Of a DNA stretch of 64,000 bases, positions 54-7,772 are shown piece after piece. Position 1 is the first letter of the stretch. The number at the start of each line of letters is the position of its first letter. The notes below the pieces were generated by a model. It searched no databases. It was not told the origin of the DNA and was given only the letters and a program-made list of their open reading frames with translations. Position numbers and translations under genes: made by a program. This DNA is from a virus (lineage: Duplodnaviria; Caudoviricetes): positions 1-64,000 of the IMG/VR virus record IMGVR_UViG_3300012983_000001; one strand, written 5' to 3'.

Positions 54-123
54 AGAATATTAGCTTAACGGTAAAGCACACGACTGATAATCGTGGTCAG
101 CAGTTCGACTCTGCTATGTTCTA
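54..123 (+). tRNA. tRNA-Ile (GAT)
   Basis: Cloverleaf: acceptor AGAATAT/ATGTTCT, anticodon arm CACGA-ctGATaa-TCGTG, T-loop TTCGACT; CCA not encoded. Confidence 0.9.
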
Positions 124-383
124 CTATTACAGGATACTGACTAATCCTGTATAACACAGAAATCCAAAGCTTGTGCGGATGAAGTGATAAGAGGAGCAAG
201 CCCAAATAACACTGATGGTTAATGTGTTCGCCTCTTTTTGAGCACGGGATGCAGAAAAGAATAGACATCTCTTAAAGTTTAGGTAAATAAACGGCTCAGG
301 TTAGTCACCTCTTAGTCAGAAACGATAGGTCTGAACGTTGAACGTAGTAGCGAAAGCGAACTGGAAGAGTAGTAGGACCGCTT

Positions 384-455
384 TGGGTATTAGCTCAATG
401 GTAGAGCACACGGCTGTTAACCGTGGGGTTGTTGGTTCGAGCCCAACATGCCCAG
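384..455 (+). tRNA. tRNA-Asn (GTT)
   Basis: Acceptor TGGGTAT/ATGCCCA, D arm GCTC/GAGC, CACGG-ctGTTaa-CCGTG, GTTGG-TTCGAGC-CCAAC. Confidence 0.95.
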
Positions 456-657
456 TTTGAATCCATACGGTCATATGATTGTTTGATGGTTCATATGTAA
501 ACACTCCAAACCCAGGTAACTGGGTTGCCAAAAACAAATCCTTAACGGTTTGTTCCAATAACAACTTCTAGTGTATAGACCTCTGTTTTCGGACATGTTC
601 GCACATCGCTATCAAGGTTTTTGCGTAGCTTAGGCTTTGGTAGCGAAAGAAAAACCT

Positions 658-729
658 GGCTCCATGGTCAAGCGGTAAAGACATTGCCCTTTCACGGCAG
701 TAACACGAGTTCGAATCTCGTTGGAGTCA
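658..729 (+). tRNA. tRNA-Glu (TTC)
   Basis: Acceptor GGCTCCA/TGGAGTC, TTGCC-ctTTCac-GGCAG, ACGAG-TTCGAAT-CTCGT. Confidence 0.95.
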
Positions 730-841
730 TTTGGAGAAGAGGTAGGTTGGCGGAAAGGGAAAGTTCCCGTATGTAAGCAGTAGGCCAGAACGCTTTGACG
801 GCAGTGCCTCAGCTAAAATCAGTTTTGCTTCTCCAATACAT

Positions 842-915
842 AGCGGGGTGGAGCAGTTCGGCAGCTCGTCAGGCTCATAACCTGAAGGTCGTGAGTTCAA
901 ATCTCACCCCCGCCT
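842..915 (+). tRNA. tRNA-Met (CAT), initiator type
   Basis: GCGGGGTGGAGCAGTTCGG start typical of Firmicute fMet tRNA, unpaired 1:72, TCAGG-ctCATaa-CCTGA, T-loop TTCAAAT. Confidence 0.9.
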
Positions 916-971
916 CTGGCTGAAATGCCTTTTACCTCATTTCTGTATGTATGGTCGAGGGACATACGGAG

Positions 972-998
972 ACAGCCCTAGCAAAGCGCTAGGGCTGT
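972..998 (+). terminator. Hairpin, probable intrinsic terminator after first tRNA group
   Basis: ACAGCCCTAGC...GCTAGGGCTGT followed by T-rich tract. Confidence 0.6.
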
Positions 999-1007
999 TG
1001 TTATTTC

Positions 1008-1036
1008 TTGACAATTTTGCTGTAATATGTTATACC
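1008..1036 (+). promoter_or_regulatory. sigmaA-type promoter for tRNA-Lys/HU
   Basis: TTGACA-17 nt-TATACC with extended -10 TG, directly upstream of tRNA-Lys. Confidence 0.6.
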
Positions 1037-1051
1037 GTAATTAGAATATTT

Positions 1052-1124
1052 GGGATATTAGCTCAGTCGGCAGAGCACATGACTTTTAATCATGGTGTCT
1101 GGGGTTCGAATCTCCAATGTCCCA
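1052..1124 (+). tRNA. tRNA-Lys (TTT)
   Basis: Acceptor GGGATAT/ATGTCCC, CATGA-ctTTTaa-TCATG, T-loop TTCGAAT. Confidence 0.95.
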
Positions 1125-1151
1125 CTACCTTAAAGAAAGGAGATTAAAACA

Positions 1152-3244: not shown

Positions 3245-3751
3245 ATGGCAATCATAGGCGAATGGATTCCGCAATGTGGATTCAAATCTAAAGCTGATGC
3301 TCATAAAGTAGCATTAGAACTTGAAAGTATCGGGTATAGCAATGGTACCGATGAATTCAATACACAGGAGATTGTAGACTTTGCTCGTAACAATCCTACC
3401 TGTGAAATGTATAACTTATTTGAATGGAACGATACTATTGCCGCTGAAGCTCACCGAAATGAGCAGGCAAGAGACATACTTCGTTTTCTTAAGATTACAG
3501 TAGTCAAACAGGAAGAAGATACTGTTTCTATGCAACCAACTGTCGTGCGATACTTTGTTAATACAGGTAAACGAGATGGTACATATAAGAAAACCGAAGT
3601 AATCTTTCAGAATGCTAGTGAAGCAGACAGAATTATGGAAGGAATGAAGCGTGATGCTGAGAATTTTATTAATAGATATCAGATTTATGCTCATCTTAAT
3701 CCAAATATTCCAGCTGCAATCCAGGCATTACAGGCAGTAATTAATCCTTAA
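3245..3751 (+). CDS. Phage protein, putative accessory protein of the RAMP/RNA-array locus
   Basis: AGGAGG RBS; motif IVDFAR..P...Y.LFEWNDTIAAEAHR.EQAR.ILR; stop lies 5 nt before the array. Confidence 0.8.
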   Translation: MAIIGEWIPQCGFKSKADAHKVALELESIGYSNGTDEFNTQEIVDFARNNPTCEMYNLFEWNDTIAAEAHRNEQARDILRFLKITVVKQEEDTVSMQPTVVRYFVNTGKRDGTYKKTEVIFQNASEADRIMEGMKRDAENFINRYQIYAHLNPNIPAAIQALQAVINP

Positions 3752-3755
3752 TATA

Positions 3756-4620
3756 TAATCTTACCGTAGATATATTGGCTTTAATGGTCAATGAGAAGAA
3801 TGCAACAAAGGTCAGAATATGACAGGACAGTGCAGCGTATATCATTACATCATATTTCAAATGGCTTTTAGAGCCTTTATATCTGCGGTAAGATTACTGC
3901 GAGTACAATATAGGATAGAATTGCTCATATCAGACCATATCAGTAGAATGCAGAATAACAGAAAATACTACAATACAAGTCTTTTATTCTTTTACATGCA
4001 TATTGGCTTTATGGCTAATAACCACACTACAAGTTCGAACAGGACAGAACATTTCAGAAACACGAGACCTGAGAACAGAATAGCGTATATCAAAGGCTTT
4101 AGAGTCAATATTCATGTAAAAGAGGACAGGACAACTCAGTGCATTTCTACCACAACAAATGACAATTTATATCATGATAAGACAGAGGGGCGGTTAAATT
4201 ACCGCCCTATTTTTATAAGCATAAATATTGGCTTTAATTAGTCAATAAAATAGTACAGAACAGGTCAGGATACGTCAGCAAAAAAACAGCTAATCTCACT
4301 ACAACACAGCGTATTGCATAAGTTAACAGGACAGTATAGCACAAAGTACCAAATAACAATACATAGGCTCATTAGAGCCTTTATTTATGCTTATAAATTT
4401 AGTGGGGCTAACGCCCCACTAATGATTATGAATACATATATTGGCTTTAATTGGTCAATAAGAACAGGATAGCTTAGGAGAAGTCAAAACAGTTCTCAAT
4501 ACAGCTTACGTCCGAACATTACATATCAAATGGCTCTTAGAGCCTTTATATGTGTTCATAAACACAAGCACAAAGACAGCAGAATACATGTCAGTGCAAC
4601 GTAGGACATTACAAAACAAA
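3756..4620 (+). ncRNA. Array of structured RNA cassettes with 5-nt periodic (NN + D-Y-A) tracts; putative guide RNAs
   Basis: Four cassettes (3756-3896, 3988-4123, 4212-4397, 4426-4561), each with a long outer inverted repeat, a 5' hairpin ATTGGCTTTA..RGYYAAT and a 3' hairpin GGCTY.TTAGAGYC; pentamer tracts inside and between them; G-U pairs support + strand. Confidence 0.85.
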
Positions 4621-4661
4621 ATCCTACTAAAGTAAGTAGGTAGAAAGTGAGGACACACATT

Positions 4662-5348
4662 ATGGCAGCTAAGAAAGCTCAGACAAGTGCAAACCCAGAA
4701 GTACAGGTAGTAGAAACTGAATTACAGAATAAGATTCGTTTTGCTACAGCAACAATCACCATTCAGGGGGATAGTGATTTAATTCTTAACAAAATGAGAG
4801 ACAGTACAACTCAGCAGCTCGCAGATAAGCAGGAGGGCAAGGTTCAGGGTACCAAGGCTCCTGTAAACATGTATGAGCATCTTGTTGGTTCCATCCACTG
4901 GTTAAAGGGCGAGGAAACCAACTATACCGAAGAAGGCTGGAGAAACGCATTAGCAAACAATGTTCCAGGTTATCCGTCTTCTGGTTTAAAGAAAGCTCTG
5001 TGTGATGCAGTTGTTCGTGTACTGGGCGAAACATACAGTACAAAGTTTAATGCAAATATGCAGATTCTTGACAGTTTCCTGCCGATTACATTCGCAGCGA
5101 GTACATATGACAAGTCTCTGTTTAGCCCGCAGAAGGGTAGCCCTGTTCTTTGTTACAGAAATGTATTTAAGGACTGGGAAACAACGTTTACTATTAAGTA
5201 TATTCCAGACAACTATTCTTTAGACCAGATTCTGGAAGTTATCAACTGTGCAGGTTTTGCATGTGGTATCGGTAGTCATAGACCATCCAGTAAGGGTGGT
5301 TCTAACGGCATGTTCCATGTTGCAAAAGTTGTAGAGATGGCTGCATAA
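4662..5348 (+). CDS. Stand-alone RAMP / Cas7-like protein
   Basis: N-terminal strand TITIQGDSDLILNK, PGYPSSGLKKAL (cf. RAMP P.IPGSSLKGAL), C-terminal Gly-rich loop AGFACGIGSHRPSSKGGSNGMFHV; ATG at 4662 after GAGG. Confidence 0.8.
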   Translation: MAAKKAQTSANPEVQVVETELQNKIRFATATITIQGDSDLILNKMRDSTTQQLADKQEGKVQGTKAPVNMYEHLVGSIHWLKGEETNYTEEGWRNALANNVPGYPSSGLKKALCDAVVRVLGETYSTKFNANMQILDSFLPITFAASTYDKSLFSPQKGSPVLCYRNVFKDWETTFTIKYIPDNYSLDQILEVINCAGFACGIGSHRPSSKGGSNGMFHVAKVVEMAA

Positions 5349-5360
5349 GGAGGGATTATT

Positions 5361-5810
5361 TTGATTACTAAAGTTCAGCCATATGAAAAACTGGTGGACT
5401 ATGTAAAACAGAATCCCCAGAAAGGACAATTGATTCCACATGTAGATATCGAGCAGATTATCGGCATACCTTATCGTAAAGCGTGTGGATGCTTAAATGG
5501 TAAGTATTCTCGTGAGGTTGCAAAAGCAATCGAGAAACTCACCTCTATGGCATTAAGATTAGACCCAATTCAGGGCTATGGTTATCGTATTCTTGAAGAT
5601 AACCAATATGTCGACGTCATGGGAAGACTGTATAATACCAGTATAACATTCATGGAAAAGGCAAGATTTGTTGCCGATGGTGCTGATGTATCTAATTTGT
5701 CAGCACAAGATTTAAAGAACTTTAACGATGTTTACAATCGTATTGTAAGTGCTCAGACAGCCTTACATAGAATTCCGAAACCAGTAGCGACTCTTAAGAG
5801 TACACCATAA
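5361..5810 (+). CDS. Phage protein, possible winged-helix; putative accessory protein of the RAMP locus
   Basis: AAGGAGG RBS 12 nt after RAMP stop; helical N-terminus and wing-like LDPIQGYGYRIL. Confidence 0.7.
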   Translation: MITKVQPYEKLVDYVKQNPQKGQLIPHVDIEQIIGIPYRKACGCLNGKYSREVAKAIEKLTSMALRLDPIQGYGYRILEDNQYVDVMGRLYNTSITFMEKARFVADGADVSNLSAQDLKNFNDVYNRIVSAQTALHRIPKPVATLKSTP

Positions 5811-7347: not shown

Positions 7348-7419
7348 TGGGCTATCGCCAAGCGGCAAGGCACAGCACTTTGACTGCTGCATCCGTAAGT
7401 TCGAATCTTACTAGCCCAG
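7348..7419 (+). tRNA. tRNA-Gln (TTG)
   Basis: Acceptor TGGGCTA/TAGCCCA, CAGCA-ctTTGac-TGCTG, T-loop TTCGAAT. Confidence 0.95.
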
Positions 7420-7423
7420 CTAT

Positions 7424-7583
7424 GCATCTTCGTCTAGCTTACGAGATAGAGTACTCAATGTCAACTAAGTGAACTCGGTGAAAGCACCCTGATTAGGGTG
7501 TGACGGGTGAACGCCAAGCAGCAATGAGTAGCGCTCCATGTCGCCTTGGCAAGTAGTTCTGGGTTCGACTCCTGGGGGATGCA
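7424..7583 (+). ncRNA. tRNA-like RNA with 67-nt insertion in the anticodon loop
   Basis: Acceptor GCATCTT/GGGATGC+A, D stem TCTA/TAGA, stem TACTCA/TGAGTA enclosing 7458-7524, T arm CTGGG-TTCGACT-CCTGG. Confidence 0.6.
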
Positions 7584-7597
7584 TTCAAGAGTTTCTT

Positions 7598-7669
7598 GCA
7601 CGGGTAGTTGAGCGGGACAACGCCAGGCCTGGGGCTTGGAAGTCGCGAGTTCGAATCTCGTTCTGTGCG
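7598..7669 (+). tRNA. tRNA-Pro (TGG), atypical
   Basis: Acceptor GCACGGG/TCTGTGC, D stem GTTG/CAAC, CCAGG-ccTGGgg-CTTGG (C at position 33), T-loop TTCGAAT. Confidence 0.7.
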
Positions 7670-7772
7670 GAAAAAGAAACTTTGACACCAGGCATAGTCA
7701 TTCGGCGGGTGGATACTACTATACAGCACAAGATGCAATGGACGGTATCGAAAGAACTGTTGACTAATAATA

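What the first reader, a model, noticed from the sequence alone, without database searches (positions are those of the whole stretch)
3245..5810. Stand-alone RAMP/Cas7-like gene with a 5-nt-periodic RNA array: candidate non-CRISPR RNA-guided system
Seen: 3756-4620 is non-coding and holds seven tracts (about 100 pentamers) of the form variable NN + semi-constant (A/T/G)(C/T)A. Examples: 3795-3859 gaaga atgca acaaa ggtca gaata tgaca ggaca gtgca gcgta tatca ttaca tcata tttca; 3903-3977 has 15 in-register pentamers; 4248-4363 has 23 pentamers with one extra A. The next gene (4662-5348) has RAMP hallmarks: TITIQGDSDLIL, PGYPSSGLKKAL and a C-terminal Gly-rich loop GIGSHRPSSKGGSNGMF. No cas1/2/3/5/6 or CRISPR repeats are present. 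Known: Cas7-type RAMPs polymerise on RNA with a fixed nucleotide step. From memory, phage VIPR systems pair one such RAMP with RNAs of alternating GGY/NN motifs in which the NN dinucleotides specify a gapped DNA target. Inference: this locus is that kind of system, one subunit per pentamer, but with a different constant motif (ACA/TCA/ATA-like, not GGY on either strand) and its own cassette scaffold, so possibly an undescribed subtype.
Basis: partly seen in the sequence, partly recalled or inferred. Interest (0 to 1): 0.97.

Follow-up and report, generated by a model that had tools for sequence, protein, structure and literature searches.

The report
Phage VIPR variant aimed at restriction genes
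A complete 208-kb phage carries a divergent VIPR system (a lone Cas7-like protein plus guide RNAs written in five-base steps) whose fixed letters are A-Y-A instead of the published GGY, and one of its guides spells a conserved motif of bacterial type I restriction-modification methylase genes, which suggests RNA-guided silencing of a defence system.

Summary
Window 3756-4620 is a period-5 array of about 100 pentamers, NN + A-Y-A, far above chance.

- **Protein:** 4662-5348 is a Vipr-family RAMP. Its profile hits the solved SUSP1 Vipr at E 1.7e-8, and its fold matches Csm3/Cas7.
- **Locus:** 91 relatives keep the order accessory gene (3245-3751), array, vipr. The downstream gene 5361-5810 is not part of it.
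- **Strand and motif:** Wobble pairs, covarying stems and a terminator put the RNA on the gene strand. The constant motif is therefore G-free, outside the published consensus.
- **G-loop:** The G-loop triad co-varies with the motif: S/A/T-x-R with A-Y-A, D/E-W-R with GGY.
- **Cassettes:** Four guides sit in loops closed by long covarying stems.
- **Target:** Guide 3903-3952 and its orthologues in two related phages match the hsdM motif xIGDAYEYxI in frame. They match only under the published 1-nt-skip rule (19/20, 20/20, 22/24). All three whole-genome hits in 201 Clostridia genomes are hsdM.
- **Unknown:** Targets of the other six guides.

VIPR is known from 2026 preprints, and one lists a "TGH/NN" class that is the reverse complement of this motif. 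So this is a new variant of a known kind. This scan has found other VIPR loci on other DNA, but this clade only here.

The parts
3245..3751 (+). Conserved accessory gene (168 aa), candidate vap. The model shows a possible winged-helix-like N-domain plus a C-terminal helical hairpin.
   Evidence: Homologues lie upstream of the array in 89 of 91 related loci. The gene is also present in the distant A-Y-A locus L096 (hhalign 99.6%) but not in the GGY-type relatives L098 and L094. It hits PHROG 15946, of unknown function. AF2 pLDDT is 75. Only weak winged-helix rows appear: Foldseek E > 0.6 and VIA Z 5-6.
3756..3896 (+). Hairpin cassette 1: a long closing stem (5' box TATTGGCTTTAAT..GGTCA, 3' box GGCTYTTAGAGCC) encloses guide g1 (3795-3859, 13 units).
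   Evidence: Inverted repeat I3; MFE fold; RNAalifold and pair counts on 11 cassettes.
3903..3977 (+). Guide g2 (15 units), lying between hairpins 1 and 2. The core 3903-3952 reads V-[IM]-G-[DE]-A-Y-[DE]-Y-V-[IM] as NN-x codons and matches hsdM genes.
   Evidence: 19/20 NN match to hsdM in L105 and L120, in frame and sense, only at skip 1. All 3 whole-genome hits with at most 1 mismatch in 201 Clostridia genomes are HsdM genes, against 0 for the reversed control.
3979..4132 (+). Hairpin cassette 2, enclosing tracts 4022-4056 and 4073-4092 (guide g3).
   Evidence: Inverted repeat I2; fold; tracts.
4114..4184 (+). Guide g4 (6+8 units), conserved in related phages.
   Evidence: 97% identical in L001 and L002. 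Most substitutions fall at pentamer positions 3 and 4.
4187..4208 (+). Intrinsic-terminator-like hairpin followed by a T run on the + strand.
   Evidence: 8-pair stem with 6 GC pairs, tail ATTTTTAT. The opposite strand has no T run.
4209..4400 (+). Hairpin cassette 3, enclosing guide g5 (4243-4277 and 4284-4363; 23 units with one phase slip).
   Evidence: Inverted repeat I1; fold; tracts.
4422..4565 (+). Hairpin cassette 4, enclosing guide g6 (4462-4528). It is preceded by a GC hairpin at 4402-4425.
   Evidence: Fold; cassette alignment A3; tracts.
4574..4618 (+). Guide g7 (9 units), directly upstream of the vipr ribosome-binding site and conserved in related phages.
   Evidence: 89-96% identical in L001, L002, L083 and L084. 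All differences fall at pentamer positions 3 and 4, and none in NN.
4662..5348 (+). vipr-like gene: a 228-aa minimal RAMP with G-loop G-I-G-S-H-R-P (202-208) and a second glycine stretch (212-218).
   Evidence: phmmer to PDB 36pp 'SUSP1 Vipr protein' E 5e-5; family profile E 1.7e-8. AF2 pLDDT 85. Foldseek top hits are Csm3/Cas7 of type III and type VII complexes, E 1.6e-7. 4153 cluster representatives match the family profile at E <= 1e-3.

Best explanation
Window 3245-5348 is a divergent VIPR (Viral Interference Programmable Repeat) system of a complete 208-kb phage with direct terminal repeats.

Shown:
- A Vipr-family RAMP gene.
- An upstream array of about 100 pentamers on the gene strand.
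- A clade-specific accessory gene.
- Long covarying RNA stems that close four of the guide tracts into loops.
- One guide whose NN dinucleotides match hsdM genes under an NN-x code.

Inferred by homology with SUSP1 VIPR:
- The array is transcribed rightwards, perhaps from the accessory gene's promoter, with a terminator after cassette 2.
- Vipr protomers polymerise one per pentamer, bury the constant A-Y-A trinucleotide and present the two variable bases.
- The filament binds double-stranded DNA, skipping every third base, and blocks transcription.
- The change of constant motif from GGY to A-Y-A goes with replacement of the G-loop triad that reads the two guanines in SUSP1 (D177-W178-R179). 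Here it is S-H-R, and S/A/T-G/Q/C-R in relatives.
- The long stems probably serve as processing sites (RNase III-like) or as 5'/3' handles. This step is the least supported.

Target: guide 3903-3952 pairs with the template strand of the conserved xIGDAYEYxI codons at the start of the methylase domain of type I restriction-modification hsdM. In the one operon examined, hsdM lies upstream of hsdS and hsdR. The likely effect is polar silencing of a restriction-modification operon, carried by the host or by a rival element. Targets of the other six guides are unknown.
For: Protein:
- Profile hit to solved SUSP1 Vipr, E 1.7e-8.
- Csm3/Cas7-like fold.

Association:
- 385 tracts of at least 8 units lie on the gene strand within about 1.25 kb upstream of the gene in 81 loci, against 4 on the other strand.

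Strand:
- Flank duplexes are more stable on the + strand in 115 of 149 distinct cassettes.
- In Watson-Crick-seeded stems there are 324 G-U against 98 A-C; composition alone predicts a 44% G-U share.
- Invariant U-G pairs occur in the alignment of 11 cassettes.
- There is a + strand terminator.
- GGY arrays of the relatives L094 and L098 also lie on the gene strand.

Structure:
- 29 pairs, 11 with compensatory changes.
- 97.8% of cells paired against 83.7% in shuffles (0 of 500) and 32-53% when slid.

Motif:
- Position 3 is A in 64-81%, position 4 is C/T in about 90-95%, position 5 is A in 96-98%. Positions 1-2 are near-uniform.

G-loop and motif co-variation:
- SHR, SGR, SQR and TCR loci have A-Y-A/DCA arrays.
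- Two EWR loci have GGY/NN, and SUSP1 (DWR) has GGY by paper 10.64898/2026.04.26.720927.

NN function:
- In orthologous guides g7 and g4 substitutions fall mainly at positions 3 and 4. In g7 none of the differences is in NN.
- NN composition fits sense codon positions 1-2 best among 7 models. Bootstrap CIs exclude 0.

Target:
- Three positionally orthologous guides (window, L002, L081) match hsdM at 19/20, 20/20 and 22/24. Other skip rules give 14-17; unit-order shuffles reach at most 17-20.
- 75 window hits against 2 for shuffled guides.
- An unbiased search of 201 genomes gave 3 hits, all HsdM, with about 0.05 expected and 0 for the reversed control.
- Operon order in L132 is hsdM-rhuM-hsdS-hsdR.
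- The phage has no N6_Mtase gene and no self-target.
Against: - No transcript, RNP or binding data exist, so transcription, processing and filament formation are inferred.
- The last five units of the window's guide g2 do not match any sampled hsdM (21/30 overall, below the 80% threshold used in the VIPR paper).
- Its only exact 10-unit match in JGI metagenomes lies in a spermidine-synthase-like methyltransferase (25/30).
- The host is unknown. The hsdM-bearing genomes are a sample of Clostridia, not shown to be hosts.
- Silencing hsdM after entry would not remove enzyme already made, so the benefit to the phage is unclear.
- Six of seven guides have no identified target.
- P-values from cassettes and guides of related phages overstate independence.
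Confidence: 0.8

Rival explanations
1. The array is transcribed from the opposite strand. The RNA units would then be T-R-H/NN ('TGH/NN'), a mild variant of GGY/NN that keeps G at position 2 and mostly a pyrimidine at position 3.
For: On the - strand the unit reads T, then G (58-71%), then mostly T, followed by NN. This is closer to GGY. A TGH/NN class is listed in preprint 10.64898/2026.10.21.760802, although its orientation came from strand-agnostic embeddings.
Against: - G-U against A-C is 324:98 in strand-symmetric stems.
- The invariant U-G pairs would be A-C mismatches on the - strand.
- The + strand fold is stronger: -257 kcal/mol, z -13.7, against -238, z -9.2.
- The terminator T-run is on the + strand only.
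- GGY arrays of relatives lie on the gene strand.
- All surrounding genes are on the + strand.
Confidence: 0.08
2. This is an ordinary VIPR role. The hsdM-directed guide aims at restriction-modification cassettes carried by rival prophages, satellites or plasmids (inter-element competition), not at the host's own defence.
For: Published VIPR targets are satellites, prophages and other VIPR loci (paper 10.64898/2026.04.26.720920). Type I R-M systems are often mobile. In L132 a RhuM-family gene sits inside the operon.
Against: The guide is written against the most conserved motif of the family. It hits chromosomal hsdM genes of several unrelated genomes. None of my viral-contig scans returned an hsdM gene, but none of them searched the 10-unit hsdM core. 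Nothing distinguishes host from mobile copies here.
Confidence: 0.3
3. The hsdM match is coincidental (a motif lottery), and the real targets of all guides are elsewhere.
For: The idea came from recognising a familiar motif. The distal third of the window's guide is unmatched. An equally good or better full-length match (25/30) exists in an unrelated methyltransferase.
Against: - A whole-genome search gave only hsdM hits: 3 against about 0.05 expected, and 0 for the control.
- Two orthologous guides that differ in NN fit other natural hsdM variants better: AFGDAYEYLM 20/20 and DVIGDAYEYMIG 22/24.
- Only the 1-nt skip works.
Confidence: 0.1
4. The A/C-rich periodic tracts are not guides. They would be protein-binding spacers, leader or attenuator RNA, or a sponge, and the RAMP would be an RNA chaperone or autoregulator.
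For: Tract g7 abuts the gene's ribosome-binding site, so binding there could autoregulate translation (sequence).
Against: Homology to a solved guide-binding Vipr. NN is conserved while the 'constant' positions drift in orthologous tracts. NN composition is codon-like. The hsdM match.
Confidence: 0.03

Closest known systems
Type II VIPR systems of Escherichia phage SUSP1 and the Pseudomonas fulva prophage (bioRxiv 10.64898/2026.04.26.720920; structures 10.64898/2026.04.26.720927; PDB 36pp)
   Same: - Phage-borne minimal locus with one small RAMP, homologous by profile at E 1.7e-8.
- No cas genes and no CRISPR array.
- Multi-guide array of 5-nt units: three constant plus two variable bases.
- Guides of 9-23 units.
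- One accessory gene.
- A natural target in a coding sequence, with the skipped base on the wobble position.
   Different: - The constant trinucleotide is A-Y-A, with no G, instead of GGY.
- The G-loop triad is S-H-R instead of D-W-R.
- The array lies upstream of vipr, between the accessory gene and vipr.
- Four guides sit in loops closed by roughly 30-bp covarying stems, instead of tract plus 3' pseudoknot tail.
- The accessory protein is unrelated to those of GGY-type relatives examined here.
- The predicted target is a restriction-modification gene, not a satellite or prophage regulator.
Non-canonical Vipr-associated pentamer clusters (GAC/NN, CAC/NN, WGT/NN, TGH/NN) in bioRxiv 10.64898/2026.10.21.760802
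   Same: TGH/NN is the exact reverse complement of the NN-DCA units seen here. Those clusters also lie beside a Vipr-like fold.
   Different: That survey oriented sequences with strand-agnostic embeddings and gave no strand, scaffold, accessory gene or targets in the text I could read. I could not check whether this clade is among its 21 clusters, because no supplement is held.
CRISPR class 1 backbone RAMPs (Csm3/Cmr4 of type III, Cas7 of types I and VII)
   Same: RRM core, thumb and G-loop fold. These are the top Foldseek hits (6xn3_F E 1.6e-7; 4qyz_I). One subunit binds per fixed RNA step.
   Different: The step is 5 nt, not 6 nt. There is no CRISPR repeat-spacer array, no Cas5, Cas6 or large subunit, and no adaptation genes. 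The guide is noncontiguous.
Protein anti-restriction factors against type I R-M systems (T7 Ocr; ArdA of plasmids and conjugative transposons); from general knowledge
   Same: A mobile element that disables type I restriction-modification systems.
   Different: Those are DNA-mimic proteins that inhibit the enzyme. Here the proposed action is RNA-guided transcriptional silencing of the operon. It would be programmable and written against a conserved protein motif.

Membership tests
VIPR system | Vipr protein: a minimal RAMP (RRM core, thumb, G-loop) homologous to described Viprs | tested here: met
   Profile against PDB 36pp SUSP1 Vipr, E 1.7e-8 over the thumb and G-loop region. AF2 pLDDT 85. 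Foldseek Csm3/Cas7 E 1.6e-7.
VIPR system | Minimal locus without a CRISPR array or cas genes, borne by a virus | tested here: met
   No 20-mer in 3 or more copies in the genome. No cas hits in neighbouring ORFs. The genome is a 208-kb record with direct terminal repeats, 100% complete by CheckV. A whole-genome cas search was not run.
VIPR system | Adjacent non-coding array of tandem 5-nt units, three constant and two hypervariable positions | tested here: met
   Conserved in 81 loci.
VIPR system | Constant motif GGY, or the listed related consensus NNNGG / YNNNG / NNNNG | tested here: not met
   On the RNA strand the constant positions are A (64-81%), C/T, and A (96-98%). G is at most 10% at any of them. 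Strand assigned.
VIPR system | NN dinucleotides specify a DNA target with one skipped base per unit | tested here: met
   Computational only, and for one guide family: 19/20, 20/20 and 22/24 at skip 1 against 14-17 at skip 0, 2 or 3. Whole-genome hits were all hsdM. Other guides have no target found.
VIPR system | Conserved structured 3' tail after the repeat tract (a pseudoknot in the SUSP1 clade) | tested here: inconclusive
   A conserved 3' box exists, but it pairs with a 5' box to close the tract into a loop. Three tracts lie outside hairpins. Mature RNA ends are unknown.
VIPR system | Accessory vap gene (vap1-6), predicted to interact with DNA | tested here: inconclusive
   A conserved accessory gene is present in 89 of 91 loci. 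It has no family hit.
VIPR system | vrRNAs are expressed and co-purify with Vipr; the complex represses transcription | not testable with these tools
   Needs sRNA-seq, pull-down and reporter assays.
CRISPR-Cas class 1 effector (Cas7/Csm3) | RAMP backbone subunit encoded with a CRISPR array and other cas genes | tested here: not met
   The fold is similar, but there is no repeat-spacer array, no neighbouring cas genes, and no Pfam or NCBIfam Cas7 model hit.

The most novel reading that the evidence does not exclude
The A-Y-A clade is a distinct, not yet typed kind of VIPR. It has its own G-loop reading head, a hairpin-caged guide architecture and a private accessory protein. Phages use it as a programmable anti-defence weapon. 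Its guides are written in the sense of conserved protein motifs, with the wobble base skipped. One guide can therefore silence type I restriction-modification operons across many host strains.
Probability: 0.4. Interest if true: 0.85.

Novelty: new variant of a known kind. Interest (0 to 1): 0.72.

Why it matters
VIPR was described only in 2026, with GGY as the anchor that Vipr reads. This locus adds four things.

- **Anchor and reading head.** A natural clade reads a G-free anchor, and the reading-head residues change with it. That gives a direct handle on how the protein recognises the constant bases. It also suggests orthogonal Vipr/guide pairs for engineering.
- **Guide architecture.** The hairpin-closed cassettes are a different solution to guide definition and processing.
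- **Code.** The hsdM match shows computationally that the 1-nt-skip code holds in a distant clade.
- **Biological role.** The match points to a role not reported in the VIPR papers I read: a phage silencing a restriction-modification operon with a guide RNA. This is directly testable with a reporter and plaque assays in laboratory strains.

Tried and rejected
- **Self-targeting.** No guide matches the phage's own genome above shuffled-guide level at skip 0-3.
- **Cross-targeting among held loci.** Nothing apart from a locus fetched by the pattern itself.
- **Exact gapped-pattern scans of IMG/VR.**
  - g1, g2 (off-consensus units masked), g5b and a guide conserved in the far clade gave 0 hits.
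  - g7 gave one hit, in a DndB-family ORF of a 43-kb viral contig (L085), phased to the wobble position. About one hit is expected by chance, and three other DndB loci match only at chance level.
- **Metagenome scan of the g2 10-unit core.** One exact hit, in a spermidine-synthase-like gene (L093, 25/30 over 15 units). This is about the chance expectation.
- **Full 15-unit g2 with at most 3 mismatches.** None in 401 Bacillota genomes.
- **g1, g5b and g7 in five hsdM-bearing genomes.** None.
- **20-kb R-M neighbourhoods.** Only the hsdM motif is hit repeatedly. A far-clade guide (L030) matches a putative hsdR gene at 16-17/24, too weak to claim.
- **Known RNA families.** No Rfam family, including hammerhead, in 3600-4800.
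- **Similar phage records.** No similar record in INPHARED phages.
- **Accessory protein.** No Pfam, PADLOC, NCBIfam or PDB-sequence hit.
- **Complex prediction of Vipr with the accessory protein.** It returned no verdict.
- **Promoters.** Reading by consensus gave fewer sites than shuffles and was not used.
- **Supplements.** Supplementary tables of the VIPR paper are not held, so I could not check whether this clade is among its 667 systems.
Full report
**Observation.** The 865-nt gap between the genes at 3245-3751 and 4662-5348 has the strongest period-5 signal of the window.
- It parses into seven tract groups of about 100 pentamers of the form NN + (A/T/G)(C/T)A on the + strand.
- 87 units lie in tracts of six or more, against 4.5 +/- 5.5 in dinucleotide-preserving shuffles.
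- The window is the first 64 kb of a single 208,433-bp contig with 38% G+C. It is classed as a complete virus record with direct terminal repeats.
- tRNA genes flank the locus.

**The protein.** The 228-aa product has no Pfam, NCBIfam or PADLOC hit.
- phmmer finds the solved 'SUSP1 Vipr protein' (PDB 36pp) at E 5e-5. A profile of 26 homologues raises this to 1.7e-8, aligned over the thumb and G-loop.
- An AlphaFold model (pLDDT 85) matches Csm3/Cas7 backbone subunits of type III, VII and I complexes (E 1.6e-7 and weaker).
- An exhaustive profile search finds 4153 cluster representatives at E <= 1e-3, so this is one branch of a large family.

**What VIPR is, from the papers.** Preprint 10.64898/2026.04.26.720920 describes the system.
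- Loci are phage-borne and hold one RAMP (Vipr), an accessory vap gene, and vrRNAs of 9-16 YNNGG units followed by a structured tail.
- The NN dinucleotides read double-stranded DNA with one skipped base per unit.
- There are seven types, using GGY/NN or NNNGG, YNNNG or NNNNG.

The structural paper 10.64898/2026.04.26.720927 assigns recognition of G1 to H17 and D177, of G2 to R138 and W178, and of Y3 to a pocket that includes R179.

Preprint 10.64898/2026.10.21.760802 lists 21 clusters of non-canonical pentamers beside Vipr-like folds, for example GAC/NN, CAC/NN, WGT/NN and TGH/NN. Their orientation was set by strand-agnostic embeddings. TGH/NN is the reverse complement of NN-DCA. This clade has therefore probably been seen in bulk, although I could not verify it.

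**Conservation of the module.** In 81 loci from IMG/VR and other assemblies, at 34-96% protein identity, there are 385 tracts of at least 8 NNN-Y-A units on the gene strand. Nearly all lie within 1.25 kb upstream of the gene. Only 4 lie on the other strand.
- The upstream 168-aa gene is present in 89 of 91 loci. The downstream genes are not conserved.
- The same accessory gene accompanies a distant A-Y-A locus (L096, hhalign 99.6%). It is absent from the GGY-type relatives L094 and L098.
- Its fold is uncertain. There are weak winged-helix-like rows plus a helical hairpin, none above the noise level stated by the tools.

**Which strand is the RNA.** Five lines agree on the + strand.
1. Duplexes between the two flanks of each tract are more stable on the + strand in 115 of 149 distinct cassettes.
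2. In stems found with a strand-symmetric score, transition mismatches are G-U 324 times and A-C 98 times. Composition alone predicts a 44% G-U share.
3. RNAalifold on 11 cassettes gives 29 pairs, 11 with compensatory changes, and invariant U-G pairs. 97.8% of cells are paired, against 83.7% in shuffles (0 of 500) and 32-53% when slid.
4. The whole region folds better as + strand RNA, z -13.7 against -9.2.
5. A terminator with a T-run is present on the + strand only, and the GGY arrays of related loci lie on the gene strand.

The RNA therefore carries A (64-81%), C/T and A (96-98%) as constant bases. This falls outside the consensus given in the VIPR paper.

**Reading head and anchor change together.** In the alignment, SUSP1 D177-W178-R179 corresponds to S-H-R here (residues 205-207). 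It corresponds to S-G-R, A-H-R, S-Q-R or T-C-R in the rest of the clade.
- Loci with these triads have A-Y-A or DCA arrays: the window clade, the far clade, L095 and L096.
- The two E-W-R relatives fetched (L094, L098) have plain GGY/NN arrays.
- The sample is small: six clades, counting SUSP1 from the paper. The link to base recognition is an inference from the SUSP1 structure.

**Cassette architecture.** Four tracts (g1, g3, g5, g6) are loops of 55-115 nt closed by stems of about 30 bp.
- The inner part of each stem is a conserved box pair. The outer part differs between cassettes but stays complementary.
- Three tracts (g2, g4, g7) lie between or after hairpins.
- Loop guides have no counterpart of at least 70% identity in six closely related loci. 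g4 and g7 are 89-97% conserved.
- I infer that the stems define or process the guides. No data bear on this.

**Do the NN bases carry information?**
- In the conserved guide g7 every difference among four relatives lies at pentamer positions 3 or 4, within the allowed A/T/G and C/T sets. None lies in NN. g4 shows the same bias.
- Across 181 distinct guides (2325 units), NN composition fits sense codon positions 1-2 better than antisense, other registers or background. Bootstrap intervals exclude zero.

**A natural target.** I tested this.
- In 30 N6_Mtase loci from 41 Clostridia genomes, the first ten units of the window's guide match 19 of 20 NN positions of the codons for VIGDAYEYMI. The match is in frame and in sense, with the skipped base on the wobble position.
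- The positional orthologue in L002 matches AFGDAYEYLM 20/20. The orthologue in L081 matches DVIGDAYEYMIG 22/24.
- Other skip rules give 14-17. Unit-order shuffles reach at most 17-20. The phage's own genome reaches 15-18.
- Over all guides there are 75 eight-unit windows at 15/16 or better, nearly all at this site. Shuffled guides give 2.
- In an unbiased search of 201 whole genomes with at most one mismatch there were three hits and none for the reversed control. About 0.05 hits are expected. All three lie in proteins with HsdM_N and N6_Mtase domains.
- In L132 the gene order is hsdM, rhuM, hsdS, hsdR on one strand. A block at codon ~162 of hsdM could therefore be polar on the whole operon.
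- The VIPR papers I searched do not mention restriction-modification targets.

**Limits.**
- The last five units of the window's guide do not match any sampled hsdM (21/30).
- The mismatch within the core falls in a unit whose own anchor is off-consensus (GTAGA).
- An unrelated methyltransferase in one metagenome contig matches 25/30.
- The host is unknown. Shine-Dalgarno sites and the hsdM hits suggest Clostridia, but MAG bins holding relatives are mixed.
- Six guides have no target.
- Nothing about expression, processing or binding has been measured.

**Verdict.** This is a real VIPR-family system. It departs from the described family in anchor motif, reading-head residues, guide scaffold and accessory gene, and it has a computationally well-supported target in a defence gene. 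Other agents of this scan reported VIPR loci on other DNA, mostly GGY/NN with a few odd anchors. A sequence look-up found this clade only in this genome.

Noticed in passing
L095:3001-3160: The called 281-aa product P0094 has an N-terminal extension rich in N, T and Q that is really the pentamer array read as protein. NNACA units continue to about 3065. The true start is probably the later MAKTKE. Gene callers can swallow these arrays.
   Followed up: partly
window 3819-4241: A mechanical 140-aa ORF lies inside the array on the + strand. It is likely spurious for the same reason.
   Followed up: no
L085:1773-1798: Guide g7, which is conserved in the window's clade, has its only exact IMG/VR match (18/18) in a DndB-family (PF14072) gene of a 43-kb viral contig. 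The match is antisense, with skipped bases on wobble positions. It is compatible with chance, and other DndB loci do not match. It is still worth a mismatch-tolerant search.
   Followed up: partly
L135:3930-7049 and L139:3763-6891: A guide of a far-clade phage (L030 2023-2082, also in L062) matches 16-17 of 24 NN positions of the codons for PKDFKAKGNI in a roughly 1040-aa ORF. That ORF lies downstream of hsdM in two genomes and is probably hsdR. The match is too weak to claim.
   Followed up: partly
window 54-1125 and 7348-7670: Seven tRNA genes (Ile, Asn, Glu, Met, Lys; Gln, Pro) flank the VIPR locus in this jumbo phage.
   Followed up: no
L094:1480-1950 and L098:2686-2975: Relatives with an E-W-R G-loop carry long canonical GGY/NN arrays downstream of the gene, not upstream. 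They lack the accessory gene of the A-Y-A clade.
   Followed up: partly
L132:8417-9430: A RhuM-family gene sits between hsdM and hsdS in the type I R-M operon of a Lachnospiraceae MAG.
   Followed up: no
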